Virus record (IMG/VR): IMGVR_UViG_3300016263_001265 | Location: 1-64,000 of that record | DNA: 64,000 bases | Source of the DNA: a virus | Lineage: Duplodnaviria > Caudoviricetes | Strand: one strand, 5' to 3' | Position numbers and translations under genes: made by a program | Shown: positions 1,139-19,221 of the stretch, piece by piece | How the letters are laid out: every line of letters begins with the position of its first letter | How positions within the stretch are numbered: position 1 is the first letter of the stretch | The notes under the pieces: generated by a model | The model's input: the letters and a program-made list of their open reading frames with translations, nothing else | The model's database searches: none | What the model was told of the DNA's origin: nothing

Positions 1139-1401
1139 CTTGGCCTAGGGCGGGTTAGGGCGAGGACTTGACAGGGGTTGTTATTAGTGGTAGCCGAGCT
1201 CCCGCAGGAGCGAGGGTCGAACCACCGGTTAGTTAGGCTGTTCAGGTTAGTTAGGTTATTCGAGTTAGTTATATTATTAGTTCGGCCCCAGAGGACTGCG
1301 GCCCTCTGGGATAGAACCAGAAGCACCTACTTGACTCGCTGGTATCGGCTGCCTTACAATGGTCGGGCAGGGGCTTCCCTGTGAGTAGTAAGGAGGTCAT
1401 C

Positions 1402-4277: not shown

Positions 4278-4522
4278 GCGACCACTTTGAGATTCCCGTT
4301 GGAGACCCGCAGAACATCATCTTTACCTGCGACTGCGGCAAAGATGGTGAATACTGCTCCGACAATAACGCGAGCGGACATGCCGAGTGGTATTGCGCCG
4401 ACTGCGAAAACGATCGTTCGTTCAGGTACGGCTGTGCGATGTTCGTTGCCGAGGGTTGCGGCTGCGTTCCAGGCGGCGAGGACTGCGCCTGCGGTTGTGG
4501 CGGTACGGGGGTGATCAAATGA
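4274..4522 (+). CDS. Cys-rich microprotein
   Basis: About 11 Cys; GTGA and ATGA overlaps with neighbours. Confidence 0.6.
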   Translation: MSDHFEIPVGDPQNIIFTCDCGKDGEYCSDNNASGHAEWYCADCENDRSFRYGCAMFVAEGCGCVPGGEDCACGCGGTGVIK

Positions 4523-4845: not shown

Positions 4846-4970
4846 TCTCGCTTATTATTGTTAGACCCCAAAGGGCGGCGGCCCTTTGGGCTAGAACTTG
4901 ACACAATCTTGGCGGGTATGAGACAATCTGCCTAGCGGCACTTGCCGTTGAGTAGTAAAGGAGGACGGAA

Positions 4971-5933: not shown

Positions 5934-5952
5934 TCTCTGGTATCGCGTAAAT

Positions 5953-5982
5953 AAATAAGCCGCCCTTCGGGGCGGCTTATTT
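5953..5982. terminator. intrinsic terminator, identical to the copy at 6597-6626
   Basis: aaataagccgccc-ttcg-gggcggcttattt. Confidence 0.8.
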
Positions 5983-6096
5983 ATTATGTTCGGCCCCAAG
6001 GGGCCGCCGCCCCTTGGGATAGAACGCTTGACACGCTGCCAACCGAGGTAATACAATGATGAGGCTCCGCTTGGAGTAGAGTAGCAAGGAGGCGAA

Positions 6097-6588
6097 ATGA
6101 GTTGGAAGCGGTACAAGGTTGAGGTCGTAAGGCACGAGATTGCCGAGGCAAAGCCGTTCAGGATTGAGCGACCTACGGCGGCGGTGGATTTGTTCAGAGA
6201 GGACGCGAGCCGTCTGATGACTGAATCGCTTTGGGTGATGACGCTAGACGGACGCAACGGACTGATGGGCATTGAGCAGGTCTACTCTGGGACGGCAACA
6301 GGCACGAGCGTCCGAGTCGGTGAGTTGTTTAGGTACGCAGTCTCCTCTGGTGGTTGCGCCATCGTGTTGGTTCACAACCACCCAAGCGGAGACGCAACGC
6401 CGAGCGACGAGGACATTAGGCTTACGAGCGAAGTAATCGCAGCGTCCAAACTATTGGACATTGAGGTTCTTGACCATCTCGTTCTTGGCACAGGCGGCGT
6501 GTTTACGAGCATTAGGTCGCAGCGCACAAGTCTCTGGGACAGCAACAGCATAGTTGATGTGATTGAGGCTGTCGGCGCAACAAACTGA
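6097..6588 (+). CDS. RadC-like JAB-domain protein
   Basis: HNHPSGDATPSDEDIRLT and VLDHLVLG motifs. Confidence 0.9.
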   Translation: MSWKRYKVEVVRHEIAEAKPFRIERPTAAVDLFREDASRLMTESLWVMTLDGRNGLMGIEQVYSGTATGTSVRVGELFRYAVSSGGCAIVLVHNHPSGDATPSDEDIRLTSEVIAASKLLDIEVLDHLVLGTGGVFTSIRSQRTSLWDSNSIVDVIEAVGATN

Positions 6589-6596
6589 AACGAAGT

Positions 6597-6626
6597 AAAT
6601 AAGCCGCCCTTCGGGGCGGCTTATTT
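6597..6626. terminator. intrinsic terminator
   Basis: Same sequence as 5953-5982. Confidence 0.8.
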
Positions 6627-6742
6627 ATTATGTTCGCTCGCAAAGGGCGGCGGCCCTTTGCGGTAGAACGCTTGACGAGTCTGGGGAGATGGATTTACAA
6701 TGTGGACACCCTGCTTGGGGTGCTGTGAAAAAGGAGGCGACA

Positions 6743-7006
6743 ATGGGATTCCTGCGAGCGTCAATGACGATGTGTGGCAACGGCGATTGCTACTACGACC
6801 AATGCGAGTGCGAAACGCACGACCACCCGATGGTTCAGGAGTGCGATGGCGAAACGCATTTGAGTCTTGATAAGCGTTGTCCGTTTGAGGGCAAGGACAG
6901 GCGGGTCAAGTTTGGTTGGAACGGCTATGAACTCGCCTATGACGAGGTGATTTCGCTCTGCGACGACTGCTGGGACGCTGCGATGTCCGTTGCGAGTGAA
7001 TACTAA
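6743..7006 (+). CDS. Cys-rich hypothetical protein
   Basis: AAGGAGG SD before ATG 6743. Confidence 0.7.
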   Translation: MGFLRASMTMCGNGDCYYDQCECETHDHPMVQECDGETHLSLDKRCPFEGKDRRVKFGWNGYELAYDEVISLCDDCWDAAMSVASEY

Positions 7007-7199
7007 TGGACGCGCAGGGCGCGTTCTATTTGATGTTCGGTTCGCTGCTTCTCTGGGCGTACTTCCTCACGAGGAGGTAGTCCCTATTATTATGGGGTGG
7101 CGCAAGCAGCCGCCGCTGCTTGCGATAGAACGCTTGACGAGTCGGGTATACCTGTGGGAGAATACGCTTGTCGGAGAACCGACAGAAGGAGGCAAGACA

Positions 7200-7469
7200 A
7201 TGGACGCTACACCAATCGCGTGGCAGTACGAGGCTTCTGTTCATTGCGTAAAGTGCGCCGAGGGCAAGTGGGGTGCTGCGCTAAACGACGAAGGAACACT
7301 TGATAGCGAAGGCAACAATCTTCACCCCGTCTTTGACTGGGACGATGTGAATCTGTGCGGTGAGTCTTGCGGGACTTGCCTTGACTGGGCGATTGAGCCA
7401 GTACCGCACGAGCCAGCCAGTTGTCTGCTAGGATACGACTGCCGACTGCCACAGGCGGCGGCACTATGA
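7200..7469 (+). CDS. Cys-rich hypothetical protein
   Basis: SD before ATG 7200; CxxC motifs. Confidence 0.7.
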   Translation: MDATPIAWQYEASVHCVKCAEGKWGAALNDEGTLDSEGNNLHPVFDWDDVNLCGESCGTCLDWAIEPVPHEPASCLLGYDCRLPQAAAL

Positions 7470-7660
7470 CTACGGATAGGTAGAAGAGCCTCCACCTATC
7501 CATCACGAGCGGAGCAGTTGCGTCGCAGCCAACTGCTCCGCTTCTTATTGTTCAAGCCCAAAGAGCCGCAGCTCTTTGGGATAGAACGCTTGACGGGCGG
7601 CTCACAATGGGATTACAATGGGCGCAGCCCACTTGGGCGGGTAGCAGTAAGGAGGCTCAA

Positions 7661-7999
7661 ATGTTCTGGAAGGCTCTGGCAGTTTCGCTCACGAACGGCG
7701 ACTTTATCCGCGAAGGCGACGATTGGATTGTTGACCCAAAGCACAATGCGCGCCTTGACGGATTCGCCGAAAAGTTCTCTCAAATCTACAACGACACGCT
7801 GAACGGCTGGCATCACCCAGACGATTCTCTGGAAACCGAGCAGGACGGCGTGTACGACAAGTATGGAGTCGTAATCGTACATTGGCGCAACGACGGATTC
7901 ATTGACTTCGTTGCGTTTGACTCCGAAGATGGAGCGAAGCGCGAGTGGAGCGACATCGCCGATGTGTACGACCTAATGCCAAACGGCAAGACTTTCTGA
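7661..7999 (+). CDS. hypothetical protein
   Basis: SD before ATG 7661. Confidence 0.75.
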   Translation: MFWKALAVSLTNGDFIREGDDWIVDPKHNARLDGFAEKFSQIYNDTLNGWHHPDDSLETEQDGVYDKYGVVIVHWRNDGFIDFVAFDSEDGAKREWSDIADVYDLMPNGKTF

Positions 8000-8118
8000 A
8001 CATAATAAGTTCGGCTCCAAGAGGCGGCGGCCTCTTGGACTAGAACCCTTGACGGCTGGGTTCTGGTCGTTATAGAATCGGGTAGTGCCAAATGGCACAG
8101 GCATAGAAGGAGGCAGAA

Positions 8119-8409
8119 ATGGGAAAGGCAATCAAACTCGCAGAGGCAGCGGAGATGATTCGCAACAGCAACGGCGCAATCTTCGGGGTGGACTTCGTGA
8201 AGCGCACGACGGGCGAGGTTCGCAAGATGACGGCGCGGCTCGGAGTGAAGAAGCACCTGAAAGGCGGCGAGGCGGCGTATGACGCGGCGGCGAAGAATCT
8301 CATCTTCGTCTACGACATCGCGGCGAAGGGATACCGCACCATCGCGCTTGACGCAATCAAGGCGGTGCGATTCGGCGGCGAGCAGTATGAAGTTGAGGAG
8401 GCACGATGA
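8119..8409 (+). CDS. SH3-fold DUF2693/WYL-like protein
   Basis: FGVDFVKRTTGEVRKM...VYDIAAKGYRTI pattern. Confidence 0.6.
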   Translation: MGKAIKLAEAAEMIRNSNGAIFGVDFVKRTTGEVRKMTARLGVKKHLKGGEAAYDAAAKNLIFVYDIAAKGYRTIALDAIKAVRFGGEQYEVEEAR

Positions 8410-8642
8410 ACGGCGTTGCGAGCGTTGAGCCAGCGGTCTGGTATCAAATCCACACAAACGGAGCGACGACGACCTTCGCCCGATACTATCGGCAGGACGA
8501 TGGGCTTTATCGCTTCCAGAAACTCGCAGCCGACCACACGGCGGAGCCAACAGGATTCGCGGAAATCTTTGGCGACGAAGTGATGGAATCGCTTGGCGAG
8601 GTTTCGCTTCGTATGACTCGCGCAATCGTAAGCAAAGAATAA
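8406..8642 (+). CDS. hypothetical protein
   Basis: ATGA-coupled. Confidence 0.65.
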   Translation: MNGVASVEPAVWYQIHTNGATTTFARYYRQDDGLYRFQKLAADHTAEPTGFAEIFGDEVMESLGEVSLRMTRAIVSKE

Positions 8643-8765
8643 CGCTCATTATAGTTCAGCCCCAAGTGGCCGCCGCCACTTGGGATAGAACCACTTGACG
8701 GCTGGCTGAATAGTATGCGACAATCCGATAGACGGCGACTGCCGTTGTAGTAGCAAGGAGGCAAG

Positions 8766-9071
8766 ATGGCTGCGAACTTCGCAAAGACCGAGGAGTACCT
8801 TGAAAACGCAAAGGGTATCGCGTGGGATACCTGCCACAAGATTTATGTCCTGATGGACGACGAGCAGATGGCGCAGATGAAAGAATACGGGTATGACCCG
8901 CTTATCCCTGCAAGCGAACTCACGCCGAGCGAGATGCTTCACCAAGTTCGGTATTGGTACGCACAATCCTGCGGCTTGCGGTTCGTTCAAGCGGTTTACA
9001 CAAACCACAATAATCCGAACGACGGATTCGTTGCCCTGATTGAGCAGGGAGATGATTACGAGGAGGAGTAG
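8766..9071 (+). CDS. hypothetical protein
   Basis: SD plus promoter. Confidence 0.75.
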   Translation: MAANFAKTEEYLENAKGIAWDTCHKIYVLMDDEQMAQMKEYGYDPLIPASELTPSEMLHQVRYWYAQSCGLRFVQAVYTNHNNPNDGFVALIEQGDDYEEE

Positions 9072-9195
9072 GTAGTCCTCAAATAATAAGGGCGGGGAAA
9101 CCCGCCCTTATTATTGTTATAGCCCAACAAGCGGCGGCTTGTTGGGATGGAACCAAAGATGGGGGCTTGACAAGCGGCTTGGGATGCCTGATACT

Positions 9196-9428
9196 CCCTT
9201 TGTCGGGAGCGATCCTAGGAGCAGCAAACGACAGGGTGAGACTCGTGGACGAGCGAGCAGGTCAGCCGCAGCCCTAAATGCGGGATGACGAGAGGCAAAG
9301 GACGATGACCGCTAGGTGCCAATGGATCGGCGGAGCGGTAGGAAAAGGAGCCGAGGGAAGTGATTAGCCCTCGGTGAATAATCCGAAAGAAGCCCCTTGG
9401 AGCCGACGGGTTCCGAGGGGCTTCTTAT
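9196..9428 (+). ncRNA. candidate structured sRNA 1
   Basis: Promoter at 9167 and terminator at about 9389-9428; no convincing ORF; several helices. Confidence 0.55.
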
Positions 9429-9504
9429 TAGGTTCAGCTCCAAGCAGCCGCCGCTGCTTGGAATAGAACGCTTGACTTTCGCATTTGTCCGTGGGACAAT
9501 CGTT

Positions 9505-9748
9505 CCACGAGCCGCTCTGGTGCCGCTGTGAAGGTGGCGGGCTTATGGGGCTGCGGCTGGTTGGTAGTTGCAGACAAACTACTCGCGACGATAAGGACGA
9601 GCGGGGTGGGTGAATAACCAACACCTATGCCGCTTGCAAGAGGTAGCCGAGAGGTAGAGCCTCTCTCCGCAAGGGGATAAGCGTCAAGGCGGCGATACGC
9701 CGATGAGGGTCTGGTTGGTGTGGTGCCAGCCAGACCCTCATCATTTTG
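9505..9748 (+). ncRNA. candidate structured sRNA 2
   Basis: Promoter at 9472 and terminator at about 9703-9748; no long ORF; nested helices. Confidence 0.55.
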
Positions 9749-9856
9749 TTCGTCCTCAAAGGGCGGCGGCCCTTTGAGATAGAACGCTTGACGAGTTGCC
9801 AAGTGTTCGCGTAGTATTCAGGTGCGGGGACTTCCCGCGAAGCATAGGAGGCTCAG

Positions 9857-10177
9857 ATGGCAGACGGATACAACGGCTGGACGAACTGGGAAACTTGGGT
9901 GACGAATCTCTGGATTCAGGAGGGGCTGCTTGACCTCTTTGAGGCTGGCGAGCAGGCGCGCTACTTCGCCGAGCAGGACGAGGACACAGCCGCCTACGAG
10001 ATGGGCAAGTGGATTCGCGAGCAGGTTGAGGAGATTATCGGGGAGCAGCCCGCGGGACTTGTCGCGGACTTTGTCGGCGGCGCGCTCGGCTCGGTTGATT
10101 GGACGGAAATCGGCGAACACTTCACCGACGAAGCAATCCAGAACGAGCGCGAACAAACAGAGAACGCGGACGAATAG
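9857..10177 (+). CDS. conserved phage hypothetical protein (YNGWTNWETW motif)
   Basis: Motif recurrent in phage accessory proteins; SD plus promoter. Confidence 0.75.
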   Translation: MADGYNGWTNWETWVTNLWIQEGLLDLFEAGEQARYFAEQDEDTAAYEMGKWIREQVEEIIGEQPAGLVADFVGGALGSVDWTEIGEHFTDEAIQNEREQTENADE

Positions 10178-10297
10178 CGGCATAATAAAGTAAGACTCCA
10201 AGCACCCGCCGGTGCTTGGAATGGAACCCTTGTGCGTTCGTGGAAGTTCGTGTAGTATTGCCTAGCGGCGGTTGCCGTGAGTAGTAAGGAGGCTGAG

Positions 10298-10558
10298 ATG
10301 GCAGAGTATAAGGTTCGCGGGTGCGCCGTTCTGAGCAGCGGGAAGGTCTGGTCGGATACGATTCTGGTCAAGGGCAATGTGAGCCGCGACAATGCGCTCG
10401 GCAAGGCGCGCCGTATGTTGGAACTATGGAAGGGCGCGGACAATGTTCGCCGAACCGCATTCTGGTTCGCTGATGACCCTGATAGCGTTGCCGAAGGCGA
10501 GAGCAGCGCGCGCCTTATGCTCCGCGAGGCTGAGGCAAGGGGCGAGATTACCGCCTAG
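10298..10558 (+). CDS. hypothetical protein
   Basis: SD before ATG 10298. Confidence 0.7.
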   Translation: MAEYKVRGCAVLSSGKVWSDTILVKGNVSRDNALGKARRMLELWKGADNVRRTAFWFADDPDSVAEGESSARLMLREAEARGEITA

Positions 10559-10687
10559 CCTATCGGCTGCTTCATTAGTTCGGCTTGGAGCAGCCGCGGC
10601 TGCTCCAACTAGAACCTATTGACGGAATCCAAGACATCGCATAGTATTCGTTGTGCGGGGACTTCCCGCCAATAGCAGGGGGCTCAA

Positions 10688-10921
10688 ATGGCAGGAGAAA
10701 GATACACAAACGGCATTATGGAAGGTATGCTTTCTGGGCGCGTAAACTATGCGCTTGACGCAAGCCTAGACGCAAAGGGCGAGAAGCGAGAAGCCTACCT
10801 CAAGGCGGCGCAATACGCGCAAGCCGCTCTGTTCGCCTACGAGGTAAACGGAGATTCGGATGAGGTACGCCAACTCACGACACTTTCGTTTGATTGGATG
10901 GATAAAGCAAACGAAATCTAG
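10688..10921 (+). CDS. hypothetical helical protein
   Basis: SD plus promoter. Confidence 0.7.
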   Translation: MAGERYTNGIMEGMLSGRVNYALDASLDAKGEKREAYLKAAQYAQAALFAYEVNGDSDEVRQLTTLSFDWMDKANEI

Positions 10922-11045
10922 GGCATAAATAGTTCGGCTCCTATTGGCCGCCGCCAATAGGATTAGAACGCTTGACGGCTCGCGCTGTGTTGGCGTAGTA
11001 TTCAGGGGCGGGGACTTCCCGCGAGTAGTAAAAGGGGGCAAAAAA

Positions 11046-11474
11046 ATGGGGAAGGCAATCAAGTTTGCGGTGGGGCAGTTTCTAGACGGAACGCCAACAC
11101 CCGCGCTGTTCAATTGGATTGAGATCGTGGACTTCAACGATGACGGCAACACGCTCAAAGAGCTTTACCGAGTCGGCGAGTGGTACATGACCGAGGTCGC
11201 CGCTTCTGGTAAGTACGGTGCTACGAGTGTCGTGCTCTGGTGCGATGAGGAAGGGCTTTATCATCAGCCCGTCATTCGCAATCAGGCGGCAACTTCGCTG
11301 CGAAACGAAATCCTCGGCGGTCGCTTTGACGCTCTGTTTGGGAACTGCGTACTCACCGCAGAGGACGAGGACGGCAAGACGCTTGCGCTCACCGATGAGC
11401 AGGTTTCGGAAATCAAGACGCTGCTAGAACTTGGCGGGTATCCAATCATCACGGACAACTCAACCAAGAACTAG
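11046..11474 (+). CDS. DUF3846-like protein
   Basis: LWCDEEGL...N..AT...LFGNCVLT motif. Confidence 0.7.
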   Translation: MGKAIKFAVGQFLDGTPTPALFNWIEIVDFNDDGNTLKELYRVGEWYMTEVAASGKYGATSVVLWCDEEGLYHQPVIRNQAATSLRNEILGGRFDALFGNCVLTAEDEDGKTLALTDEQVSEIKTLLELGGYPIITDNSTKN

Positions 11475-11639
11475 GCGCGAAAGAGTCATAAACAGACAAG
11501 CGGGGCGATTGCCCCGCTTGTTTGTTTGTTCAGCTCCAATCTGCCGCGGCAGATTGGAATAGAACCCCTTGACGAATCCGAATCGGCGTGCCTACAATGG
11601 GCGTAGCCCGATTGGGCTGGCTGCGAATAAAGGGGGGCT

Positions 11640-11998: not shown

Positions 11999-12193
11999 CA
12001 CAAGCACCGATGGCGGCGGGGAAACCCGCCGCCATTATCGTTATGCTGCAAGCGTCCGCCGACGCTTGCAATCGAACGTTAGTTATGTTGTTAGTTAGAT
12101 CAGGGAGTTGCGAGATCGAACTAGATTCGATGGAGAGATGAGATTGAACCACCCCGCCCGCCGCGCGTCCGCGGCGAGCGGGGTGTTCGTCTA

Positions 12194-12439
12194 CTAGATT
12201 TCGTTTACTTCGAGGTCGTCCATCCTCGGGAATTTGTCGTACGCTTCATTGTACGCTTCCTCCCACGCTTTCTCGGCGCAGCCATCGCAATTGAGAATCG
12301 CGTCCATGCGCTCATCCCATTGCTCTGTCGTTTCATCCTTTGGCTCTTTGTGCTCGTCGCACAGCATTGAATCGTAATCTTGGTCGACCTCAATAGTGTC
12401 CTCTATTGTCGCAACCACCTTGAACCTACGGCTCGGCAT
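12194..12439 (-). CDS. hypothetical protein, unit 1
   Basis: SD and repeat module upstream. Confidence 0.75.
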   Translation of the reverse strand: MPSRRFKVVATIEDTIEVDQDYDSMLCDEHKEPKDETTEQWDERMDAILNCDGCAEKAWEEAYNEAYDKFPRMDDLEVNEI

Positions 12440-12675
12440 TATCAGCCTCCTGTTTTACGATTCACACTATCAACGATAGTGCGTCGGCGTCCCGATGGAT
12501 AGATAGTGCCAAGAGCGATTAGTCAGTTTAGGTTCGTGCGATGCGAGCGGAGCGAGCAATTGAACGTTAGTTAGGGTTAGTTAGTTATCTTATGGGCTGC
12601 CGAGCTCGAACAAAGTGAGGGAGACGAGGGATACCACCGCCCCCCACCGCGCGTCCGCGGTGGGGGGCGGGGTGC

Positions 12676-12978
12676 CTATGCCTTCGACTGAGCCTTCTCA
12701 ATCGCCTTCATAGCAGAAGCCTGACGCTTCTGGAGTTCCTTGACGTTTGCTTCATAGTAGGCAAGAGCCTTGTTGGCAACATCAAGCGCGGCGTTCAGTT
12801 TCTTGACGACGCTCTTGCTGGGCTTCTCTGCTCTTGCGACTATCGCAATCTGCTCTTGCGTGAAGTCAACGGCGTCCATAGCCGCAGCACGCTGCTCAAT
12901 AGAGCGCGCGAGGAGTTTCGTGATGACCCCAAGCGACTCTGTTGCTGTGCGCTTCGCGCGCTTTACTTTCTCTCCCAT
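12676..12978 (-). CDS. coiled-coil hypothetical protein, unit 2
   Basis: SD and module. Confidence 0.8.
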   Translation of the reverse strand: MGEKVKRAKRTATESLGVITKLLARSIEQRAAAMDAVDFTQEQIAIVARAEKPSKSVVKKLNAALDVANKALAYYEANVKELQKRQASAMKAIEKAQSKA

Positions 12979-13206
12979 AAAGCCTCCTGTGCTATGACTT
13001 GATTATGCGGCGCGTCCGCCGCTACAAGAAGAATACGCGGTTTGTAAAGTTTAGTCAGGTTAGGTCGTAAGCCGCGGAGCGGCGAGTCGAACCTGGTTAT
13101 GTAGTTAGTTAGTTATCTTATGGAGTTGCGAGATCGAACAAAGTGAGATAGAGACGAGAGACCTAACCACCCGAGCCGCAGGACCTCGCGGCTCGGGTGG
13201 GTTGGA

Positions 13207-13473
13207 CTATCGGTTCGTGGAAGCTTCAACCGTGAATCCGTCAATCGCTCGGCGCAAGTACGATTGATGGCGTGATGTCGTCACGCTGTAGCGCTGATTG
13301 TTTAGATTCCAATGCGTGCCGTCAGTCTGACCAATCCACTGATTGTACGAATACACCACATAGATTTCTCCCTGCCACTCGCCACGCATACTCCCTGTGT
13401 GCGAAGAGAAATCATCTAGGCGCGAAATCGCCGCGATGACCTCTTTACGATTTAGCCGCTTACGCTTTCCCAT
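13207..13473 (-). CDS. conserved phage hypothetical protein (YSVTTSRHQS motif), unit 3
   Basis: Motif; SD before ATG 13473. Confidence 0.75.
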   Translation of the reverse strand: MGKRKRLNRKEVIAAISRLDDFSSHTGSMRGEWQGEIYVVYSYNQWIGQTDGTHWNLNNQRYSVTTSRHQSYLRRAIDGFTVEASTNR

Positions 13474-13695
13474 TACTTTCCCTCCTACTACTAGCGCGGG
13501 AAGTCCCCGCTCATCCATAATCGCGGTATCGCTTAGATAGTTTAGGTTCAGTCGTAGCGAGCGGAGCGAGCCGTGGAACGTTATGGTTATCCAGTTAGTT
13601 ATCTTAGGGATCTGCGGGATAGAACGAAGTTCTATAGAGAGGAGGAATCTACCAACCCCCCACCGCAGCGCGTCCGCTGCGATGAGGGGTTGGAT

Positions 13696-13944
13696 TTACT
13701 GAGCGATTGCTTCCCGCTCTGCCGTGAGTTGGTCCCACGCTTCCAAGAGAGCGTCCTTCGCTTTCATGTGAGCGGTGTACTCCTGGTCCCAATGGTCCAG
13801 AAGCGTATCGTACATCTTGTCATCGCCACACTTGATTTCTCTGCCGTTCAGTTTCTTCCAATGATTCTCATAAGAAGAAAGATTGGCGTATGCCGCCCTC
13901 TCCGAGAGAAAAGTAAGTGCGAACATTTTATAGAACTCGTCCAT
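13696..13944 (-). CDS. helical hypothetical protein, unit 4; paralog of 15140-15397
   Basis: Shared pattern MDxxYxxFALxxLxERxA...Y.xLxDxWD. Confidence 0.8.
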   Translation of the reverse strand: MDEFYKMFALTFLSERAAYANLSSYENHWKKLNGREIKCGDDKMYDTLLDHWDQEYTAHMKAKDALLEAWDQLTAEREAIAQ

Positions 13945-14196
13945 ACTGCCCCCTGTACTAAACGATTCACGCCATCAACGATAGCGTGTCGGCGTCCCGA
14001 TACAAGAAGAATAGGTGGCTCGAAGAGTTTAGTCAGGTTGCCGCGTTAGGCGCGGAGCGCCGAGTCGAACTTAGTTAGTGGTTATTATTAAGTTAGTTAT
14101 CCTGCGAAGTTTCGGGATAGAACGAAGTTCTATAGAGAGCATCGAACTAACCACCACCGCCAACCGCGCGTCCGCGGCTGACGGTGGTGGGGATTC

Positions 14197-14418
14197 TCAG
14201 TATCCTCGGCGCGTCCGAATCTTTTCCTTTACATGCTCAACGACGCGGTCCTCTTCACTATTCCAGAAACAATCCGCGCAGATTGCCTCGGGAAGTATGG
14301 TGTCGTAACCATAGTAGTCTTCCCAGGAATCTTGGATTTCATCCTCGCTTCCAGTGGCATCACACCAACTGCAAGTGAGGACTTTCTCCTCTTGCTCTAT
14401 CTTTTCCTCTAAGGTCAC
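14197..14418 (-). CDS. CxxC-CxxC microprotein, unit 5
   Basis: CSWC and CADC. Confidence 0.7.
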   Translation of the reverse strand: MTLEEKIEQEEKVLTCSWCDATGSEDEIQDSWEDYYGYDTILPEAICADCFWNSEEDRVVEHVKEKIRTRRGY

Positions 14419-14655
14419 TTTACACCCCCAGAACTAAACGATTCACGCAACCAACGGTAGCGCGTCGGCGTCCCGATGAATAAAGAATAGGCATTCTGAG
14501 AAGTTTAGTCAGGTTCATTCGATAGCCGCGGAGCGGCGAGTCGAACTTAGTTAGGCAGTTAGTTATCTTATGGGACTGCGAGCTCGAACGTAGTTCGAGA
14601 GAGAAGAGCGATCGACCACCCCCCGCCGCGCGTCCGCGACGAGGGGTGAGTCGAA

Positions 14656-14907
14656 TCAGATCGGAAGATCCATCAAGATCCTTGTGCGCTGATCGTCGGT
14701 GAGCATTCTCCAGATGTCAAGTTCCTTCATCTTGTCGTGAAGGTTCATGCGATCGCCGTACACGCCACCGAGCATGCCAACGATACACTCTGGATTGTCT
14801 TCATCCGTGATCTCCGTCAGGAAGTATTCTGGAATACCCTGATCGAATCCGTAGATGAACTTTCGCTCTTCGCCCTTGACGATTGCTTTAAGTCTGTACT
14901 GGCTCAT
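14656..14907 (-). CDS. hypothetical protein, unit 6
   Basis: SD and module. Confidence 0.75.
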   Translation of the reverse strand: MSQYRLKAIVKGEERKFIYGFDQGIPEYFLTEITDEDNPECIVGMLGGVYGDRMNLHDKMKELDIWRMLTDDQRTRILMDLPI

Positions 14908-15139
14908 ACCTACCTCCTATAACTACTACTACAACTATACGGCGCGTCCGCCGTGCTAATACGATCCCAGATTCGCTGGGTCAGTTTAGGGTCGTGCGTT
15001 GGACGCGGAGCGGCCTGTCGAACTTAGGTTAGGGTTAGTTAGTTATATTGTGGAGTTGCGGGATAGAACGAAGTTCTATAGAGAGCAGAGATCTACCAAC
15101 CCCCCACCGCAGCGCGTCCGCTGCGATGGGGGGTTGGAT

Positions 15140-15397
15140 TTACTGAGCGGAGAGAACCGTGAAGGTTCCCTCTGCTTTCATCTTTCGATATTCCTTGGTG
15201 AGGACTTTCTCTACGTCCTTGAGTTCAGTGTGCGCCGCGTCCCACTCGTCGACGAGTGAAGCGTATACGGCGTCCGTAGCGTACCGTGGCTCTGGCTTGC
15301 CCTGCGCAGCAGCGATTGTTTCCCACTGCTGAACATTGCGCCACGCTTCTCGCTCCGCAAGCCACGCAAGAGCGAATAGTCTGTACAAACTATCCAT
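15140..15397 (-). CDS. helical hypothetical protein, unit 7
   Basis: Paralog of unit 4. Confidence 0.8.
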   Translation of the reverse strand: MDSLYRLFALAWLAEREAWRNVQQWETIAAAQGKPEPRYATDAVYASLVDEWDAAHTELKDVEKVLTKEYRKMKAEGTFTVLSAQ

Positions 15398-15630
15398 ACT
15401 GCCTCCTGTTATCTTGACTCACGCTATCAACGATAGCGTGTCGGCGTCCCGATGAATACAGAGTAGGGAGTACGAGAGGTTTAGTAAGGTTACTGCGTAA
15501 GGCGCGGAGCGCCGAGTCGAACTTAGTTATCCAGTTAGTTATATTAGGGGCTGCCGAGATCGAACAAAGTTCGATAGAGAGAGACGACCTAACTCCCCCA
15601 GCCGCGCGTCCGCGACTGGGGGAGTAGGCT

Positions 15631-15933
15631 TCAGATTGACCAGCCGTCAGCGGGCATCTCTTCGATGATCCACTGATCGGCTTCGTTGCGCTCACGCACG
15701 CGATAGCCGATTGGCTTCAACGCATCGTTCAGCGTTGTGCGCATTCCGTCACTAGCGAACTCGTCAAGGTATCCCCTAGGGTTTGCCTTGCGGCGATAAT
15801 CCAACGCCTTGACGATTCTATCCGATACCCTATCGGTAATCTCGTTCAGCGCGGCATCATTCTCCGCCCCCGTCTTCCTATCATCGTGGCGGTATACAAC
15901 CAACCACTCGATAGGATTGTAGTGCTTACTCAT
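15631..15933 (-). CDS. hypothetical protein, unit 8
   Basis: SD and module. Confidence 0.75.
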   Translation of the reverse strand: MSKHYNPIEWLVVYRHDDRKTGAENDAALNEITDRVSDRIVKALDYRRKANPRGYLDEFASDGMRTTLNDALKPIGYRVRERNEADQWIIEEMPADGWSI

Positions 15934-16208
15934 AACTACCTCCTATAACTACTACTACTATTGCGCGGTGCGTCCACCGCCTATCCATAATCAGGGATAG
16001 GATAGTTCATTCATTGTGGTGGCGATAGGCGCGGAGCGCCGTCTAGAACGTTAGTTAGGGTTAGTTAGTTATCTTATGGAGTTGCGAGATCGAACAAAGT
16101 TCGATAGAGATCAACGCACTAACCCACCCCCCACTCGCCGCTTGCTGCGAGTGGGGGGTGGAGCGAGCGCCCTAGCAGTGAGCGCTCGCTGTGTTGCTCC
16201 CGAGTGTG

Positions 16209-16454
16209 CTAATCGGCGTTCGCCATAGCACGATTCAGATCAGCCTGAGCACGCTCAAACTCATCCTCACGATGCCATAGCACCCGATTCGCTGTCTGCA
16301 CATCGCGGTGCGAGAGCGGCGAGTTCCCCAGGTATGGGGCTCGCTGCTGTGCAACGCGGTGCTTCGCAGCGACAAAATCACACTGCGCAGCAATCAAGCG
16401 ACCGAGAGTTTCGTCTCGGCGCTTTTTTGCTGCCGCCAGATTCCTGTCGGACAT
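16209..16454 (-). CDS. hypothetical protein, unit 9
   Basis: SD before ATG 16454. Confidence 0.65.
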   Translation of the reverse strand: MSDRNLAAAKKRRDETLGRLIAAQCDFVAAKHRVAQQRAPYLGNSPLSHRDVQTANRVLWHREDEFERAQADLNRAMANAD

Positions 16455-16698
16455 AAGCACCTACCTTTCTGTCGCCACGCCTGCTATTGCGTTGCCTCGG
16501 CGACAAGAAAAGAATACGAAGACTCGCAGGGTAGTTTAGGTTGCTGCGATGGGCGCGGAGCGGCCAATCGAACGTTAGTTAGGGAGTTAGTTATATTACG
16601 GGCTGCCGAGATCGAACTCATCCGTATGGAGAGAAGGGATCGACCTACCCCCCACCGCGTTTCCGCGATGGGGGGTAGTGGAAGCGATTGGCTACTGG

Positions 16699-16956
16699 CT
16701 AGACCTTGTGCTCGTCCATCTCCGAGTCTAGGAATTTGTATTCCTTGATCTCCGTGTCGTTTGCCGGTTCGGCATTGTCGACCGTCGCATCTCCCTCGTT
16801 GGCGTAATCCGTCGCCCAACCATTAGCAACAAGATTCTCAGCAATCTCTTTTGCTTGCTCGAGATTCTTTGCCATGATCGGTAGCGGGTACTCTACAAGG
16901 ACCGATACCGTCACCATGAACGGCATCATCTCCGGTTGCTTCTTTTTCTTTCCCAT
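16699..16956 (-). CDS. DpnD/PcfM-like protein, unit 10
   Basis: PIMAKNLEQAKEIA pattern. Confidence 0.7.
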   Translation of the reverse strand: MGKKKKQPEMMPFMVTVSVLVEYPLPIMAKNLEQAKEIAENLVANGWATDYANEGDATVDNAEPANDTEIKEYKFLDSEMDEHKV

Positions 16957-17201
16957 GACAGACCTCCTGCTTTACGGTACACATAGGCGGCGCTTCCAAC
17001 CGCACATCCATAATCGCGGTTGCGTGCTTATTGTTTAGGTTGTCCCGTTAGGCGCGGAGCGCCGACTCGAACTTAGTTAGTTATTGGGTTAGTTATATTA
17101 GGGACACGCGAGATCGAACGAAGTGAGAGGGGCGAGGGATCGACCACCCCGCCCACCGCGCGTTCGCGGTGAGCGGGGTGTGGTGCGTGAGCAGCTATCG
17201 A

Positions 17202-17456
17202 CTAGCCGCGGCGAAGGAACGTCGGGAAATCGAGCCAAACGCCAGCATCCTCGAGACGCTTGATAGCAGCGTCGCCGCGGACGTTGATACTCGCAGCGTC
17301 GGCGTATCCGCCGCTGTGAATGTTTAGCACGAGCTCGCCGTTTACCCGCCCGAGCTCATACGTGAGCAACGCGGGGAAACCTCCGCCATCATTGATTTCA
17401 TAGTGGAGCGACACGACGCCGTGTCGCACGTTCCACCCTGCTAGTGCTCCTACCAT
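17202..17456 (-). CDS. hypothetical protein, unit 11
   Basis: SD and module. Confidence 0.75.
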   Translation of the reverse strand: MVGALAGWNVRHGVVSLHYEINDGGGFPALLTYELGRVNGELVLNIHSGGYADAASINVRGDAAIKRLEDAGVWLDFPTFLRRG

Positions 17457-17697
17457 TACCTACCTCCTTACTACTACGGAGCGGTTGCCCCGTGAATCCA
17501 TACTGCCCTACGCGAAAGATAGTTAAAGTCATACCGATAGGCGCGGAGCGCCGTCTCGAACGTTAGTCGGTTAGTTAGTTTATGGACCTGCGGCATCGAA
17601 CCTTGTTCAATAGAGAGAGACGACCTAACTCCCCTCCCCACCGCCGTGGCGGAGGGGAGGGGAGGGGAGTGGGGGTGTCGCATCCACCCCCACTCGA

Positions 17698-17922
17698 TTA
17701 AGCCTCGTCTACGCTGTTGAGGAACACTTCCACGCTGTGTGGATGCGCTTCCTCGCAAGATACTGCCTGCACGTCATTCGACTGATCATCCATATATGAT
17801 GGATGAGACTCAGCGATGCTGACGGCAAGATCCTTCGCAGCGTCTTCATCTTTCGCGATCACTGGGATTATTCCCTCGATCACGCGAGAAACGCTTACTA
17901 GGTACCTGCGCTTCCCCTGCAT
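17698..17922 (-). CDS. DpnD/PcfM-like protein, unit 12
   Basis: PVIAKDEDAAKDLA pattern. Confidence 0.7.
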   Translation of the reverse strand: MQGKRRYLVSVSRVIEGIIPVIAKDEDAAKDLAVSIAESHPSYMDDQSNDVQAVSCEEAHPHSVEVFLNSVDEA

Positions 17923-18206
17923 ACCTTCACCCCCTCTCTACTATTCCCCGGATTAACGTATCCGCCCTCCGAATGCGGACTCCGATGAATGGGCGTATCG
18001 CATTCCGCCCATAGGAGAATGATCGCACGCTCGTTGCGTCAGTTTATGTGGTGCCGATGGGCGCGGAGCGCCCCGTCGAACGTTAGTTAGTCGGTTAGTT
18101 ATATTACGGGGTCGCGGCATCGAACGGATGTGAGGGGTGGAGGAACCTAACCACCCCGCCCACCGCGCGTTCGCGGTGAGCGGGGTGTGTGTTGCGTTCA
18201 GCTCGA

Positions 18207-18491
18207 CTATCGGGTGAGTGTCGCTGCTCGTCGGTTGATCCGATTCTTGAGCGAGTCTGGCAGGAGGCCCCAGACCATATCGGTCTTGAGAATCGACACA
18301 GCCTTCACGCCGTCATAATAGGATACCGCACCATCACGATGCTCACGAAGGAACATCATCAGCAGACCACTCACGCCAACAGTGCAATGATACTCGGTCA
18401 CATCATTGCCGTTGTTGCAGCGTATCCTGACGATTTCATCAGGGAGCATATCCACCACTAGCCTACAACCATCACCGGGAACGTGCCACAT
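18207..18491 (-). CDS. hypothetical protein, unit 13
   Basis: GGAGG SD before MWHVP. Confidence 0.65.
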   Translation of the reverse strand: MWHVPGDGCRLVVDMLPDEIVRIRCNNGNDVTEYHCTVGVSGLLMMFLREHRDGAVSYYDGVKAVSILKTDMVWGLLPDSLKNRINRRAATLTR

Positions 18492-18712
18492 ACCGTTGAC
18501 CTCCATACTATTGCGGAGCGGTTGCCCCACGCAAGAAGAATACGAATACGCGCGAGATAGTTCAGGTGATAGCGATAGGCGCGGAGCGCCGTCTCGAACG
18601 TTAGTTAGTTAGTTAGTTATATTATGTGTATGTGGGATCGAACAGAGATGTAGAGGGAGAAGAGATCGACCACCCCGCCCACCGCCGAAGCGGTGAGCGG
18701 GGTGGGGACTGA

Positions 18713-18988
18713 CTAGACGGCGATGTGGCGCTTGCCGCACTCGCATCCGCCGCGGTCGTTGCGGTTGCGAAGCACCGCATCGAGAATCGGGAAGACCACG
18801 CGCTCTAGCGTTGCGCGGAATACCCGATAGACCGAATCGCCTGCGAGCAGACCGACGAGGATGTCCATAGCGTTGATCATACGGATCGAATCGCCATCGA
18901 ATCCAAGAACGCCGTGCTGCCACGCGAGAAGATTCGCCGCCACGATGACGGTGAAGATTGCCCGAAGTGCCTTGCCGATTGTGTCCAC
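18713..18988 (-). CDS. small membrane protein with C-terminal CxCxxxH, unit 14
   Basis: Two hydrophobic helices; SD. Confidence 0.7.
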   Translation of the reverse strand: MDTIGKALRAIFTVIVAANLLAWQHGVLGFDGDSIRMINAMDILVGLLAGDSVYRVFRATLERVVFPILDAVLRNRNDRGGCECGKRHIAV

Positions 18989-19221
18989 GATTGCCTCCTA
19001 TCTACTTCTCGGGGAAGTCCCCCGTACAAGAACAATACGGGGAACGCGCAGCGTGTCTTGGGTCGACCGATAGCCCCGGAGGGGCGAGTCTAACCCCTCG
19101 CGTGCGCCCTTTGGCCCCCCACCCCTACCTGCGCTAAGGGGGTCGGGGGATTTTTTATATATACGTGGAATGGGGGTTCGATAATCGCTCTCAGGGAGCC
19201 TTCCAGAAGCCCCGGAAATGC

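What the first reader, a model, noticed from the sequence alone, without database searches (positions are those of the whole stretch)
12539..19085. Template-strand GGA-triloop hairpins with N4 virion-RNAP-like geometry
Seen: 14 copies of CG-N3-G-NN-(G/C)C-GGA-G(C/G). Stems covary: GGCGC/GCGCC, GCCGC/GCGGC and GCCCC/GGGGC (19073-19085); four copies have shorter stems. They lie on the template strand of the leftward genes. Established: GC-GNA-GC DNA mini-hairpins are exceptionally stable, and N4 virion RNA polymerase promoters are template-strand hairpins with such a loop centred at -11. Seen: with the central G at -11, +1 is C in 14 of 14 copies, giving a G-start transcript. Inference: promoters for a hairpin-reading, possibly virion-delivered polymerase, or binding sites for an activator. 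No such polymerase is recognisable in this window.
Basis: partly seen in the sequence, partly recalled or inferred. Interest (0 to 1): 0.85.

Follow-up and report, generated by a model that had tools for sequence, protein, structure and literature searches.

The report
N4-type DNA mini-hairpins before phage genes
Fourteen small genes of an uncultured 84.6-kb long-tailed phage are each preceded by a tiny, very stable DNA hairpin whose core is letter for letter that of the coliphage N4 hairpin promoters; yet no polymerase of the phage's own was found, so the hairpin most likely helps the host polymerase start at a weak promoter 54 bases downstream.

Summary
The window has 14 GGA-loop inverted repeats (12543-19086), one in front of each of 14 leftward one-gene cassettes. 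Three related phages add 34 more.

- **Real structure:** across 48 copies, 6 of 7 stem pairs covary.
- **Which strand folds:** every enclosed non-Watson-Crick opposition is purine-purine or G-T on the template (+) strand. The neighbouring terminators and 5'-leader hairpins carry G-U pairs on the mRNA strand. So this is a DNA hairpin, not an mRNA one.
- **N4 likeness:** the core GCGGAGC, the 5-bp stem and the strand match N4 promoter P2.

No T7/N4-like or two-barrel RNA polymerase and no sigma factor was detected in this complete genome. No DxDxD signature stands in the giant tape-measure proteins of any of the six phages. The tape-measure N-terminal extension is not detectable in one hairpin-bearing relative.

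The hairpin is rigidly spaced, with no indels, to a -10-like xATTcT (A and T each 36/37). A purine follows 7 nt later, then an RNA-level 5' hairpin. The -35 is poor.

Best reading (about 0.4): a supercoil-extruded structural upstream element of a delayed-early class of host-RNAP promoters. A true hairpin promoter read by an unrecognised enzyme stays possible (about 0.2). This scan has noted similar C-GGA-G hairpins in other phages, which were said to have polymerases of their own.

The parts
12040..19165 (-). Array of 14 leftward one-gene cassettes (genes 12194-18988), each made of promoter module, 5'-leader hairpin, RBS, ORF of 73-100 aa and GC-rich terminator hairpin. It is closed at 12040-12130 by a module without a GGA hairpin.
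12543..12557 (+). GGA hairpin 1: GCGAGC-GGA-GCGAGC, a 6-bp stem with tandem G.A/A.G. -10-like CACTAT at 12503-12508(-), predicted start 12496. Gene 12194-12439(-).
13070..13084 (+). GGA hairpin 2: GCCGC/GCGGC. -10-like TATTCT at 13030-13035(-), predicted start 13023. Gene 12676-12978(-).
13557..13571 (+). GGA hairpin 3: tandem G.A type. -10-like GATTAT at 13517-13522(-), predicted start 13510. Gene 13207-13473(-).
14048..14062 (+). GGA hairpin 4: GGCGC/GCGCC. -10-like TATTCT at 14008-14013(-), predicted start 14001. Gene 13696-13944(-).
14524..14538 (+). GGA hairpin 5: GCCGC/GCGGC. -10-like TATTCT at 14484-14489(-), predicted start 14477. Gene 14197-14418(-).
15001..15015 (+). GGA hairpin 6: GGACGC/GCGGCC with an internal A.G. 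-10-like GATCGT at 14961-14966(-), predicted start 14954. Gene 14656-14907(-).
15500..15514 (+). GGA hairpin 7: GGCGC/GCGCC. -10-like TACTCT at 15460-15465(-), predicted start 15453. Gene 15140-15397(-).
16027..16041 (+). GGA hairpin 8: GGCGC/GCGCC. -10-like GATTAT at 15987-15992(-), predicted start 15980. Gene 15631-15933(-).
16551..16565 (+). GGA hairpin 9: GGGCGC/GCGGCC with an internal G.G. -10-like TATTCT at 16511-16516(-), predicted start 16504. Gene 16209-16454(-).
17050..17064 (+). GGA hairpin 10: GGCGC/GCGCC. -10-like GATTAT at 17010-17015(-), predicted start 17003. Gene 16699-16956(-), a Gp2-like fold.
17539..17553 (+). GGA hairpin 11: GGCGC/GCGCC. -10-like CAGTAT, shifted by 1 nt, near 17500-17505(-). 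Gene 17202-17456(-).
18059..18073 (+). GGA hairpin 12: GGGCGC/GCGCCC, 6 bp. -10-like GATCAT at 18019-18024(-), predicted start 18012. Gene 17698-17922(-).
18577..18591 (+). GGA hairpin 13: GGCGC/GCGCC. -10-like TATTCT at 18537-18542(-), predicted start 18530. Gene 18207-18491(-).
19072..19086 (+). GGA hairpin 14, first cassette: GCCCC/GGGGC with core CCGGAGG. It lacks the upstream TAAC-repeat/TAAGAT block but keeps GTTAGA, the hairpin, CTATCG and -10-like TATTGT at 19032-19037(-). Gene 18713-18988(-).
12560..12600 (-). Example of the upstream block found in 13 of 14 modules, read on the - strand: palindrome ATCGAAC-N3-GTTCGAT, TAAGAT/TAATAT, a variable number of TAAC repeats, then GTTCGA 10-15 nt upstream of the loop centre.
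1190..1330 (+). A related module at the left end of the rightward early arm: a hairpin with a CGCA loop, TCGAAC, GTTAG repeats, TATATTA and a 38-bp GTTC...GAAC hairpin. It lies between divergent consensus sigma-70 promoters.

Best explanation
Each GGA element is a DNA mini-hairpin that forms on the template (+) strand. It is the upstream part of a rigid promoter module of about 85 nt that heads every cassette of a second, delayed-early class of phage genes.

Reading the mRNA-sense strand, with the loop centre as 0, the module is:
- GTTCGA at -15 to -10
- the stem-loop at -7 to +7
- an invariant C at +10, then G at +11
- AAC at +16 to +18
- a conserved box CT.AA that is unlike a -35
- a sigma-70-type -10 (xATTcT) at +42 to +47
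- a purine at +54, taken as the RNA start
- directly after it, an RNA-level 5' hairpin, the RBS and the gene.

Inferred mechanism: once the injected genome is circular and negatively supercoiled, the 13-bp palindrome extrudes, as N4 promoter hairpins with the same core do. The very stable template-strand GCGGAGC mini-hairpin persists. It is then bound by a factor not yet identified, either a phage early protein or a host protein. That factor stands in for the missing -35 contact and lets host RNA polymerase fire.

Shown here: the structure, the strand, the rigid spacing, the -10 signature and the failure to detect a phage polymerase. Inferred: extrusion, the binding factor, the start site and the timing.
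For: (1) Structure. Across 48 copies from 4 phages, 6 of 7 pairs change on both sides: 65 such cells against 21 +/- 3.4 in shuffles, covariation score 0.515 against 0.123, 0 of 500 shuffles as high, slid controls at most 0.126 (40 copies).
(2) Strand. All 30 non-Watson-Crick oppositions enclosed by Watson-Crick pairs are A.G, G.A, G.G or G.T on the + strand. On the mRNA strand they would be pyrimidine-pyrimidine or A.C. One tandem-G.A stem even shows a G-C to A-T change in its outer pair. Internal controls go the other way. 5'-leader hairpins fold better in mRNA sense in 34 of 37 cases, with 34 G-U pairs against 14. Most terminators also fold better in mRNA sense.
(3) Rigid coupling. An ungapped profile of 37 modules keeps A at +43 and T at +47 (36/37 each), T at +45 (34/37) and a purine at +54 (36/37). 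The spacers between them carry almost no information, yet have no indels.
(4) The slot is a host promoter in a relative. In G007, which lacks GGA hairpins, the tool calls TTGACT-16-TATTCT twice in the array. One call (5829-5856) sits just before the same kind of 5'-leader hairpin; other cassettes read by eye as TTGCGC-17/18-TATxxT.
(5) Weak -35. The best match to TTGACA is 3.1 of 6, against 5-6 of 6 in the 18 early promoters. The strict sigma-70 scan finds 0 sites in the array (5.3 expected) but 19 in 1-12.1 kb (4.6 expected).
(6) No phage RNAP or sigma detected.
(7) From the literature: hairpins with this core extrude at physiological superhelicity, and the template-strand hairpin resists SSB (PMC4496689). 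GCGGAGC melts at 73 C (PMC13037366).
Against: - No transcript ends are available, so the start at +54 is inferred.
- No binding factor is identified.
- The -10 flavour (T at hexamer position 4 in 34 of 37, C at position 5) differs from the early promoters' TAcAAT, so another sigma or factor may read it.
- The distance from hairpin to -10 differs by 4 nt between lineages (42 in this phage, 46 in G008). That is awkward for a face-of-helix activator.
- An upstream cruciform would not obviously need the hairpin to sit on the template strand, whereas an N4-type promoter does.
- Strand, polarity, the 4-nt spacer and the pyrimidine 11 nt from the loop centre are just what an N4-type promoter needs.
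- A possible Gp2-like host-RNAP inhibitor is encoded in the array itself.
Confidence: 0.4

Rival explanations
1. True N4-type hairpin promoters. An enzyme that reads the template-strand hairpin starts RNA at the conserved pyrimidine 11 nt 5' of the loop centre. The enzyme would be an unrecognised phage polymerase, or host RNAP recruited to the hairpin by a phage early protein in the way Drc or gp2 recruit RNAPII in N4-like phages.
For: - Identical heptamer GCGGAGC, 3-nt loop, 5-7 bp stems that covary, template strand and polarity as in N4 P2 (PMC13492108, PMC4496689).
- C at the N4-like +1 in 14 of 14 window copies, and an invariant neighbouring G.
- LUZ7 early and middle promoters are also hairpins with a G start 13-15 nt from the centre (PMC9163698).
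- The first cassette keeps the hairpin but not the upstream block.
- No strict sigma-70 promoter in the array.
- A protein whose best structural matches are T7 Gp2, though with a non-significant E-value, is encoded in the array. In T7 that protein goes with a phage polymerase.
Against: - No RNAP of any known kind was detected in this genome, and no DxDxD signature in the giant proteins of the hairpin-bearing relatives.
- The tape-measure N-terminal extension is absent or unrecognisable in hairpin-bearing G008.
- A conserved -10 signature, a purine and a 5'-terminal RNA hairpin sit at a fixed distance downstream. This model leaves them unexplained.
- The '+1' base is C, T or A in relatives.
- There are 14 internal copies behind a host-promoter arm, unlike the few promoters at the entering end of N4.
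Confidence: 0.2
2. Not a transcription signal. The mini-hairpins would be single-strand initiation (priming) signals or structure-specific recombination sites on the + strand, which also serve as swap points for cassette shuffling.
For: - GCGNAGC and CCGAAGG mini-hairpins mark primase sites in G4-type origins and in RSF1010 ssiA (PMC13037366).
- All copies lie on one strand, about 500 bp apart.
- Cassette content and order differ between close relatives while the modules stay alike. G002 shows three local order swaps, and G001 shares only 5 of 14 cassettes.
- This resembles the PeSL cassettes of T4-type phages (PMC2839356, PMC4122927).
Against: - One hairpin per gene, with indel-free spacing to the -10 element and leader, argues for coupling to transcription.
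- No primase, HUH nuclease, tyrosine recombinase or integron integrase was found.
- The hairpins are confined to a 7-kb stretch.
- Homologous recombination between the 100-nt modules would need no hairpin.
Confidence: 0.13
3. An RNA element. Transcripts start upstream, at the TAAGAT/TAATAT or TAAGTT -10-like boxes, and the hairpin acts in the mRNA leader as GGCGC-UCC-GCGCC, in stabilisation, processing or antitermination.
For: -10-like hexamers with A at position 2 and T at position 6 lie upstream in 13 of 14 modules. One of them would put the RNA start at the base of the stem in both this phage and G008.
Against: - Seven of the first 40 copies (tandem-G.A type), and five more with one internal purine-purine or G.T opposition among all 48, would carry pyrimidine-pyrimidine or A.C mismatches in the mRNA strand.
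- No G-U pair occurs on the mRNA strand within the stem, unlike the real RNA hairpins next door.
- The first cassette lacks these upstream boxes.
- No Rfam family matches.
Confidence: 0.07
4. No function of its own. The palindrome rides along in a module homogenised by gene conversion, and its covariation comes from template-switch correction of quasi-palindromes.
For: Copies within a genome are close kin, so the shuffle controls overstate significance, as the tool itself warns. Distant relatives G003 and G007 do without the hairpin.
Against: - The loop and closing pair are invariant in 48 of 48 copies, while the stems take at least 10 forms across lineages whose flanks have diverged.
- The mismatches are one-sided in strand.
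- The core is identical to that of a hairpin with a proven function (PMC4496689).
Confidence: 0.1

Closest known systems
Early promoters P1-P3 of coliphage N4, read by virion RNA polymerase gp50 (also LUZ7/LIT1 early promoters)
   Same: A template-strand DNA hairpin with a 3-nt GGA loop closed by C-G, and the heptamer GCGGAGC. Stems of 5-7 bp are free to vary as long as they pair. A short single-stranded spacer leads to a pyrimidine 11 nt from the loop centre. Stability comes from a sheared G.A in the loop (PMC4496689, PMC13492108, PMC9163698).
   Different: No vRNAP or other phage RNAP was detected. There are 14 copies per genome, one per small gene, inside the genome and behind a host-promoter arm. 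The hairpin is rigidly tied to a sigma-70-type -10 lying 42-47 nt downstream. The spacer is (A/T)(T/A)A plus an invariant G rather than AAAA. GTTCGA and repeat blocks lie upstream.
PeSL composite promoter/stem-loop cassettes of T4-type phages
   Same: Arrays of small, mostly unknown early genes. Each is framed by a conserved promoter-plus-stem-loop motif. Gene content is shuffled between close relatives while the motifs persist (PMC2839356, PMC4122927).
   Different: PeSLs carry ordinary early sigma-70 promoters and RNA terminators. Here the promoter has a poor -35 and an added strand-specific DNA mini-hairpin.
T4 middle promoters (MotA/AsiA sigma appropriation), as a functional analogue only
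   Same: A second temporal class that keeps a sigma-70-type -10 but replaces the -35 with a phage-specific upstream element. It follows an early class with consensus promoters.
   Different: The MotA box is a duplex sequence at -30. Here the conserved upstream element includes a structure-constrained hairpin at about -54. No MotA or AsiA homologue was found.
Mini-hairpin single-strand initiation signals (phage G4 origin, RSF1010 ssiA)
   Same: GCGNAGC or CCGAAGG mini-hairpins that resist SSB and mark a start site on one strand (PMC13037366). The first-cassette variant here is CCGGAGG.
   Different: Those act on single-stranded replication intermediates, with a primase. Here there is one per gene, fixed to promoter elements, and no primase was found.
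Tape-measure-fused virion RNAP of Thermus phage P23-45
   Same: A long-tailed siphovirus with a giant tape-measure protein carrying a long N-terminal extension, here about 1480 aa of 3474 (PMC10770324).
   Different: The defining DxDxD metal site is absent. P23-45 promoters are AT-rich or GC-rich motifs, not hairpins. The extension is not conserved in hairpin-bearing relatives. The structure model was too poor to use.

Membership tests
N4-type virion-RNAP hairpin promoter | Inverted repeat giving a 5-7 bp stem and a 3-nt loop, with stem identity free as long as it pairs | tested here: met
   48 copies, 6 of 7 pairs covary, 0 of 500 shuffles as high
N4-type virion-RNAP hairpin promoter | GC-rich heptamer GCGGAGC (-8G, -9C, -10G, -11G, -12A) on the template strand | tested here: met
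   GCGGAGC in 36 of 48 copies and CCGGAGG in 12; CGGAG invariant; + strand is the template of the leftward genes (PMC4496689, PMC13492108)
N4-type virion-RNAP hairpin promoter | Transcription starts 11 nt from the loop centre on a template C (G start) | not testable with these tools
   C in 14 of 14 here, but C, T or A in relatives.
N4-type virion-RNAP hairpin promoter | A cognate hairpin-reading T7-like RNAP encoded by the phage (virion gp50-like) | tested here: not met
   PF00940 gave no match, but its control also rang nowhere. No RNAP family in Pfam/PHROGs scans of about 100 ORFs of this genome. The 3474-aa ORF is a tape-measure protein.
N4-type virion-RNAP hairpin promoter | A few copies at the genome end that enters first, driving the earliest operons | tested here: not met
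   14 copies at 12.5-19.1 kb, one per gene, beside 18 consensus sigma-70 promoters at 0.1-11.6 kb
Bacterial sigma-70-type promoter | -10 hexamer with A at position 2 and T at position 6, and a purine start about 7 nt downstream | tested here: met
   A 36/37, T 36/37, purine at +54 in 36/37
Bacterial sigma-70-type promoter | -35 hexamer like TTGACA at 16-18 nt | tested here: not met
   Best match 3.1 of 6 (background 2.1); the strict scan finds 0 in the array
PeSL-like mobile regulatory cassette | A conserved composite promoter/stem-loop motif flanking each small ORF, with cassette shuffling between relatives | tested here: met
   Modules conserved; cassette proteins 30-93% identical; order swaps and replacements in G001 and G002
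Intrinsic (Rho-independent) terminator | GC-rich hairpin directly followed by a U run on the transcribed strand | tested here: not met
   No T run after the GGA hairpin on either strand
Two-barrel phage RNAP fused to the tape-measure protein (P23-45 gp96 type) | DxDxD metal-binding signature in the N-terminal part of the tape-measure protein | tested here: not met
   No D.D.D anywhere in P0001. In the tape-measure ORFs of the five relatives it stands only at residue 3 (G008) and residue 3200 (G002), not in an N-terminal polymerase region (PMC10770324).
Mini-hairpin priming signal (ssi) | Acts with a primase on single-stranded replication intermediates near an origin | not testable with these tools
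   No primase family found; origin unknown

The most novel reading that the evidence does not exclude
A hairpin-dependent way of starting transcription in a siphovirus that has no T7/N4-like polymerase. A small phage early protein would recognise the template-strand GCGGAGC mini-hairpin and hand it to the host multisubunit RNAP, or an unrecognised small polymerase would read it. RNA would then start 11 nt from the loop centre, or the hairpin would serve as an obligatory structural 'minus-35'. This would show that the N4 promoter principle is not tied to the N4 polymerase.
Probability: 0.2. Interest if true: 0.85.

Novelty: new variant of a known kind. Interest (0 to 1): 0.62.

Why it matters
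DNA-hairpin promoters are textbook oddities known from N4-like phages and their own polymerases. Here the same mini-hairpin core is used 8 to 14 times per genome, in four related uncultured phages. No RNA polymerase was detected in this one, and no polymerase signature in the giant proteins of its relatives. The hairpin is locked to a host-type -10 with a poor -35.

If it is an upstream structural element, it would be a clear natural case of a strand-specific, probably supercoil-gated DNA structure controlling a temporal class of host-RNAP promoters. It would also be a compact, portable part for synthetic biology. If it is a real hairpin promoter, an unknown reading enzyme or recruiting factor awaits discovery.

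The cassettes it controls are small genes of mostly unknown function. One encodes a possible Gp2-like RNAP binder. They lie next to an early arm that carries gene families typical of anti-defence regions.

Tried and rejected
- **DNA similarity to cultured phages:** no match for the array or for one module. The large terminase is at most 27% identical to any cultured phage, so no annotated relative helps.
- **Module pattern in 185,579 prokaryote genomes:** only single hits scattered over unrelated taxa, which I read as chance. No prophage copy and no host clue.
- **Rfam:** only chance-level hits.
Pfam and PHROGs call it a tape-measure protein. PDB sequence search is empty. There is no DxDxD. 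ESM Atlas scores are below 0.8. Its first 1600 residues are matched in full only in G002 and in part in G001. The AlphaFold model of residues 1-1200 had pLDDT 41 and was not searched.
- **Sigma-54 and ECF-type readings** of the conserved boxes, by eye: spacings do not fit.
- **A hairpin-shortened spacer** joining GTTCGA to the TAAACT box, by eye: broken by 4-nt insertions in several copies.
- **Phyletic profiling** to find the hairpin-binding factor (genes shared by hairpin-bearing phages and absent from G003 and G007): too many candidates.
- **Distant relatives G003-G007** lack the element. Four further fragments (G009-G012) gave no match to my stricter pattern. That same pattern also missed the real G008 copies, so it proves nothing.

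Full report
**Setting.** The window is the first 64 kb of a complete 84,616-bp IMG/VR phage record with a 22-bp terminal repeat and 52.6% G+C. It looks like a long-tailed siphovirus:
- portal at 28262-30442
- protease fused to a ferritin/Dps-like domain at 31335-33395
- major capsid protein at 33399-34634
- a 3474-aa tape-measure protein at 45879-56303
- a 2218-aa fibre at 39222-45878
- large terminase at 70495-71955.

Replication and recombination genes are of the host-dependent kind: a DnaC-like loader, RusA and a PD-(D/E)XK exonuclease. No cultured phage is close. The large terminase is at most 27% identical to any.

**The observation.** The window holds 13 hits in all, against 0.78 expected. 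Two more copies, at 12539 and 13553, differ only at one flank letter. The 14 loop centres lie 456-528 bp apart, one ahead of each of 14 leftward ORFs of 73-100 aa. Perfect GGA-loop hairpins read on the + strand number 11 in the whole genome, 10 of them here. Shuffles give 1.2, and the opposite strand has 3.

**The structure is real.** A DNA pattern scan of IMG/VR found two complete relatives with the same module, G001 (82.9 kb) and G002 (85.2 kb). A syntenic third, G008, carries 8 copies with other stems. Stems seen around the invariant C-GGA-G include:
- GGCGC/GCGCC, GCCGC/GCGGC, GCCCC/GGGGC, GGCCC/GGGCC
- GACGC/GCGTC, AGCGC/GCGCT, GACCC/GGGTC
- CTCGCC/GGCGAG, CACGCC/GGCGTG, CGCGCC/GGCGCG, AGCATCC/GGATGCT.

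On 48 copies, 6 of 7 pairs change on both sides. There are 65 such cells against 21 +/- 3.4 in shuffles. The covariation score is 0.515 against 0.123, reached by 0 of 500 shuffles, and slid controls stay at or below 0.126 (40 copies). The copies are kin, so these numbers overstate independence. Even so, at least ten different complementary stems around a fixed loop are hard to get without selection for pairing.

**Which strand folds.** All 30 non-Watson-Crick oppositions that are enclosed by Watson-Crick pairs are A.G, G.A, G.G or G.T when read on the + strand. On the mRNA-sense strand they would be C.U, U.C, C.C or A.C.
This type recurs in three phages.
- One copy of this type has its outer G-C replaced by A-T.
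- By my count these are about seven independent events, all with the same sign.

The same array supplies controls of the opposite sign. The 5'-leader hairpins fold better in mRNA sense in 34 of 37 modules, with 34 G-U pairs against 14. Most terminator hairpins fold better in mRNA sense by 2-9 kcal/mol. So terminators and leaders are RNA elements of the leftward transcripts, whereas the GGA element is selected as a structure of the template DNA strand. An antisense RNA would share that sequence. No promoter-like site on either strand supports one, and Rfam finds nothing.

**Likeness to N4.** The literature describes N4 early promoters as a GC-rich heptamer centred at -11 and flanked by inverted repeats.
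- Contacts are made to -11G, -10G, -9C and -8G.
- A sheared -10G:-12A pair sits in the loop.
- The duplex/single-strand junction lies between -5 and -4.
- The start lies 8 nt beyond -8 (PMC4496689).

The P2 oligonucleotide used for cryo-EM ends in CAGCC-AAAA-GAAGC-GGA-GCTTC-AAC (PMC13492108). Its core GCGGAGC is the heptamer found here in 36 of 48 copies; the other 12 have CCGGAGG. GCGNAGC mini-hairpins are exceptionally stable, with Tm 73 C for N=G, and also mark primase sites (PMC13037366). Strand, polarity and stem length match N4. The base at the N4-like +1 is C in all 14 window copies but C, T or A in relatives. Its neighbour G is invariant in 48 of 48.

**Is there a polymerase to read it?** I found none.
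- PF00940 gave nothing in the six-frame search, though that control rang nowhere either.
- There is no sigma region 2. The one region-4-like helix-turn-helix sits just upstream of the terminase gene and is probably the small terminase.
- Pfam and/or PHROGs scans of about 100 ORFs of this genome gave no RNAP family. The relatives' genomes were not scanned with profiles.
- The 3474-aa ORF recalls both N4 gp50 in size and the tape-measure-fused virion RNAP of Thermus phage P23-45 (PMC10770324). But it matches tape-measure families at residues 1731-1868 and nothing in the PDB.
- No [DN]xDxDGD or DxDGD motif stands anywhere in the six-frame translation, and bare DGD only outside the two giant proteins. 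The protein has no D.D.D motif at all.
- The tape-measure proteins of the five relatives have none in their N-terminal regions; the only two sites are at residue 3 (G008) and residue 3200 (G002).
- Its first 1600 residues are matched over their whole length only in G002 (59% identity), partly in G001, and not detectably in G008, which has hairpins.
- The ESM Atlas gave no lead. The AlphaFold model of residues 1-1200 was too poor to search, at pLDDT 41.

**What the hairpin is attached to.** Take the loop centre as 0 on the mRNA-sense strand. An ungapped profile of 37 modules shows:
- GTTCGA at -15 to -10 (GTTC invariant)
- CGCTCCGCG across the loop
- C at +10 (37/37) and G at +11 (33/37)
- AC at +17 and +18 (36 and 37 of 37), followed by CT.AA
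- A at +43 (36/37), T at +45 (34/37) and T at +47 (36/37)
- a purine at +54 (36/37)
- the G-rich start of the 5'-leader hairpin at +56 to +59.

The stretches between these have almost no information content, yet there are no indels. The spacing is therefore under selection. The +42 to +47 hexamer (TATTCT, GATTAT and the like) has the A2/T6 signature of a -10. The purine 7 nt later would put the RNA 5' end 1-2 nt before a stable RNA hairpin, a common stabilising design.

The -35 position matches TTGACA in only 3.1 of 6 letters, where background is 2.1. The strict promoter scan finds none in 11.9-19.4 kb, where 5.3 are expected. It finds 19 in 1-12.1 kb, where 4.6 are expected. Eighteen of those are rightward, typically TTGACG-18-TAcAAT, and one is a leftward site at 1138-1109. 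The phage thus has a clear host-RNAP early arm whose genes belong to families common in anti-defence regions: DUF932, RadC, DUF1281 and DUF3846. The array forms a second promoter class.

In G008 the same hairpin sits 46 nt from a conserved GATGAT, again without indels. G007, a more distant relative with 72% capsid identity, lacks GGA hairpins. There the tool calls TTGACT-16-TATTCT twice in the array. One call (5829-5856) lies just before the same kind of leader; other cassettes read by eye as TTGCGC-17/18-TATxxT. That supports reading the xATTcT box as a working -10.

The first cassette of each phage keeps the hairpin and everything downstream. It lacks the upstream palindrome, the TAAGAT box and the TAAC repeats, so those are not part of the minimal unit.

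**Model.** I read the GGA hairpin as a structural upstream element, centred near -54, of weak host-RNAP promoters. The inferred steps are:
1. Extrusion once the genome is supercoiled, as shown for N4 hairpins with this core at physiological superhelicity (PMC4496689).
2. Persistence of the template-strand mini-hairpin.
3. Recognition by an unidentified phage early protein or a host protein that compensates for the poor -35.

This would make the class delayed-early and dependent on gyrase.

Weak points: the start site is not measured. The -10 flavour differs from that of the early promoters. The 4-nt difference in spacing between lineages is awkward. Strand specificity follows more naturally from an N4-type promoter. 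I therefore keep a true hairpin promoter, read by something unrecognised, at about 0.2.

**Other rivals.**
- A role in the mRNA leader is disfavoured by the strand asymmetry.
- A priming or recombination role is disfavoured by the one-per-gene, indel-free tie to promoter elements and by the lack of a primase or recombinase. Still, the modules clearly also serve as shuffling points. Cassette proteins are 30-93% identical between this phage and G002, with three local order swaps, and G001 shares only 5 of 14 cassettes. This is as in the PeSL cassettes of T4-type phages (PMC2839356, PMC4122927).

**A side finding that bears on the question.** The 85-aa product of 16699-16956 weakly matches PHROG 1307, 'RNA polymerase inhibitor' (E 6e-4). 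It has a paralogue at 17698-17922. Its model (pLDDT 67) has T7 Gp2 as its best PDB matches, though the E-value is not significant (0.14; probability 0.95; TM 0.69 on the target; 28% identity). From memory, the two arginines that T7 Gp2 needs for binding are not visibly conserved, so this is a lead only. In T7, Gp2 goes with a phage polymerase, which keeps the rival alive.

**Earlier notes of this scan.** They report C-GGA-G hairpins with N4 geometry in other phages. By those notes, which I did not check, those phages encode polymerases of their own. The present case differs in that I detected none.

Noticed in passing
window 16699-16956 (-) and 17698-17922 (-): Two paralogous small acidic proteins. 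The first weakly matches PHROG 'RNA polymerase inhibitor' (E 6e-4). Its model has T7 Gp2 as the best PDB matches, but the E-value is not significant (0.14; probability 0.95, 28% identity). From memory, the arginines Gp2 uses for binding are not evident.
   Followed up: partly
window 120-11598 (+): Eighteen rightward consensus sigma-70 promoters (TTGACG/A, 17-18 nt, TAcAAT), one per early cassette, plus one leftward site at 1138-1109. That is 19 against 4.6 expected. The cargo includes DUF932, RadC, DUF1281, DUF3846 and DUF7249.
   Followed up: partly
window 45879-56303 (-): A 3474-aa tape-measure protein with an N-terminal extension of about 1480 aa rich in K, R, A and G, then a glycine-rich linker. 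The extension is matched in full only in G002 and varies greatly in the family, where tape-measure proteins run from 2794 to 5438 aa. It has no DxDxD motif, and the structure model was unusable.
   Followed up: partly
L096 (G007) 5900-10800: In a distant relative the equivalent intergenic modules carry seven G-quadruplex motifs (GGGGTNNGGGGT...), all on the strand that corresponds to the template strand. TGAATGA repeats stand where this phage has GTTA repeats.
   Followed up: partly
window 12566-18620; L101 (G003) 1990-6150; L118 (G008) 4600-8800: Every lineage has its own short A/T-rich tandem repeat in the same module slot: GTTAGTTA here, TGTAACAA and GGCTTAT in G003, ATAAGTAA in G008. Copy number varies between modules.
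   Followed up: no
window 12600-18700, after each gene stop: The array's terminator hairpins have stems of 12-19 bp, often with a GGAC/GACG apex, and no U run. In G007 the equivalent terminators do have T runs (21 found, 6.2 expected).
   Followed up: partly
window 12040-12130: After the last cassette stands a module in which a 38-bp GTTA...GAAC hairpin of the rightward-arm type occupies the slot of the GGA hairpin next to TCGAAC and the GTTA repeats. No gene follows it.
   Followed up: partly
window 19100-19165: A hairpin CCCCCCACCCC...GGGGGTCGGGGG followed by TTTTTT on the + strand. It sits at the boundary between the replication-gene block and the array and looks like a two-way terminator.
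   Followed up: no
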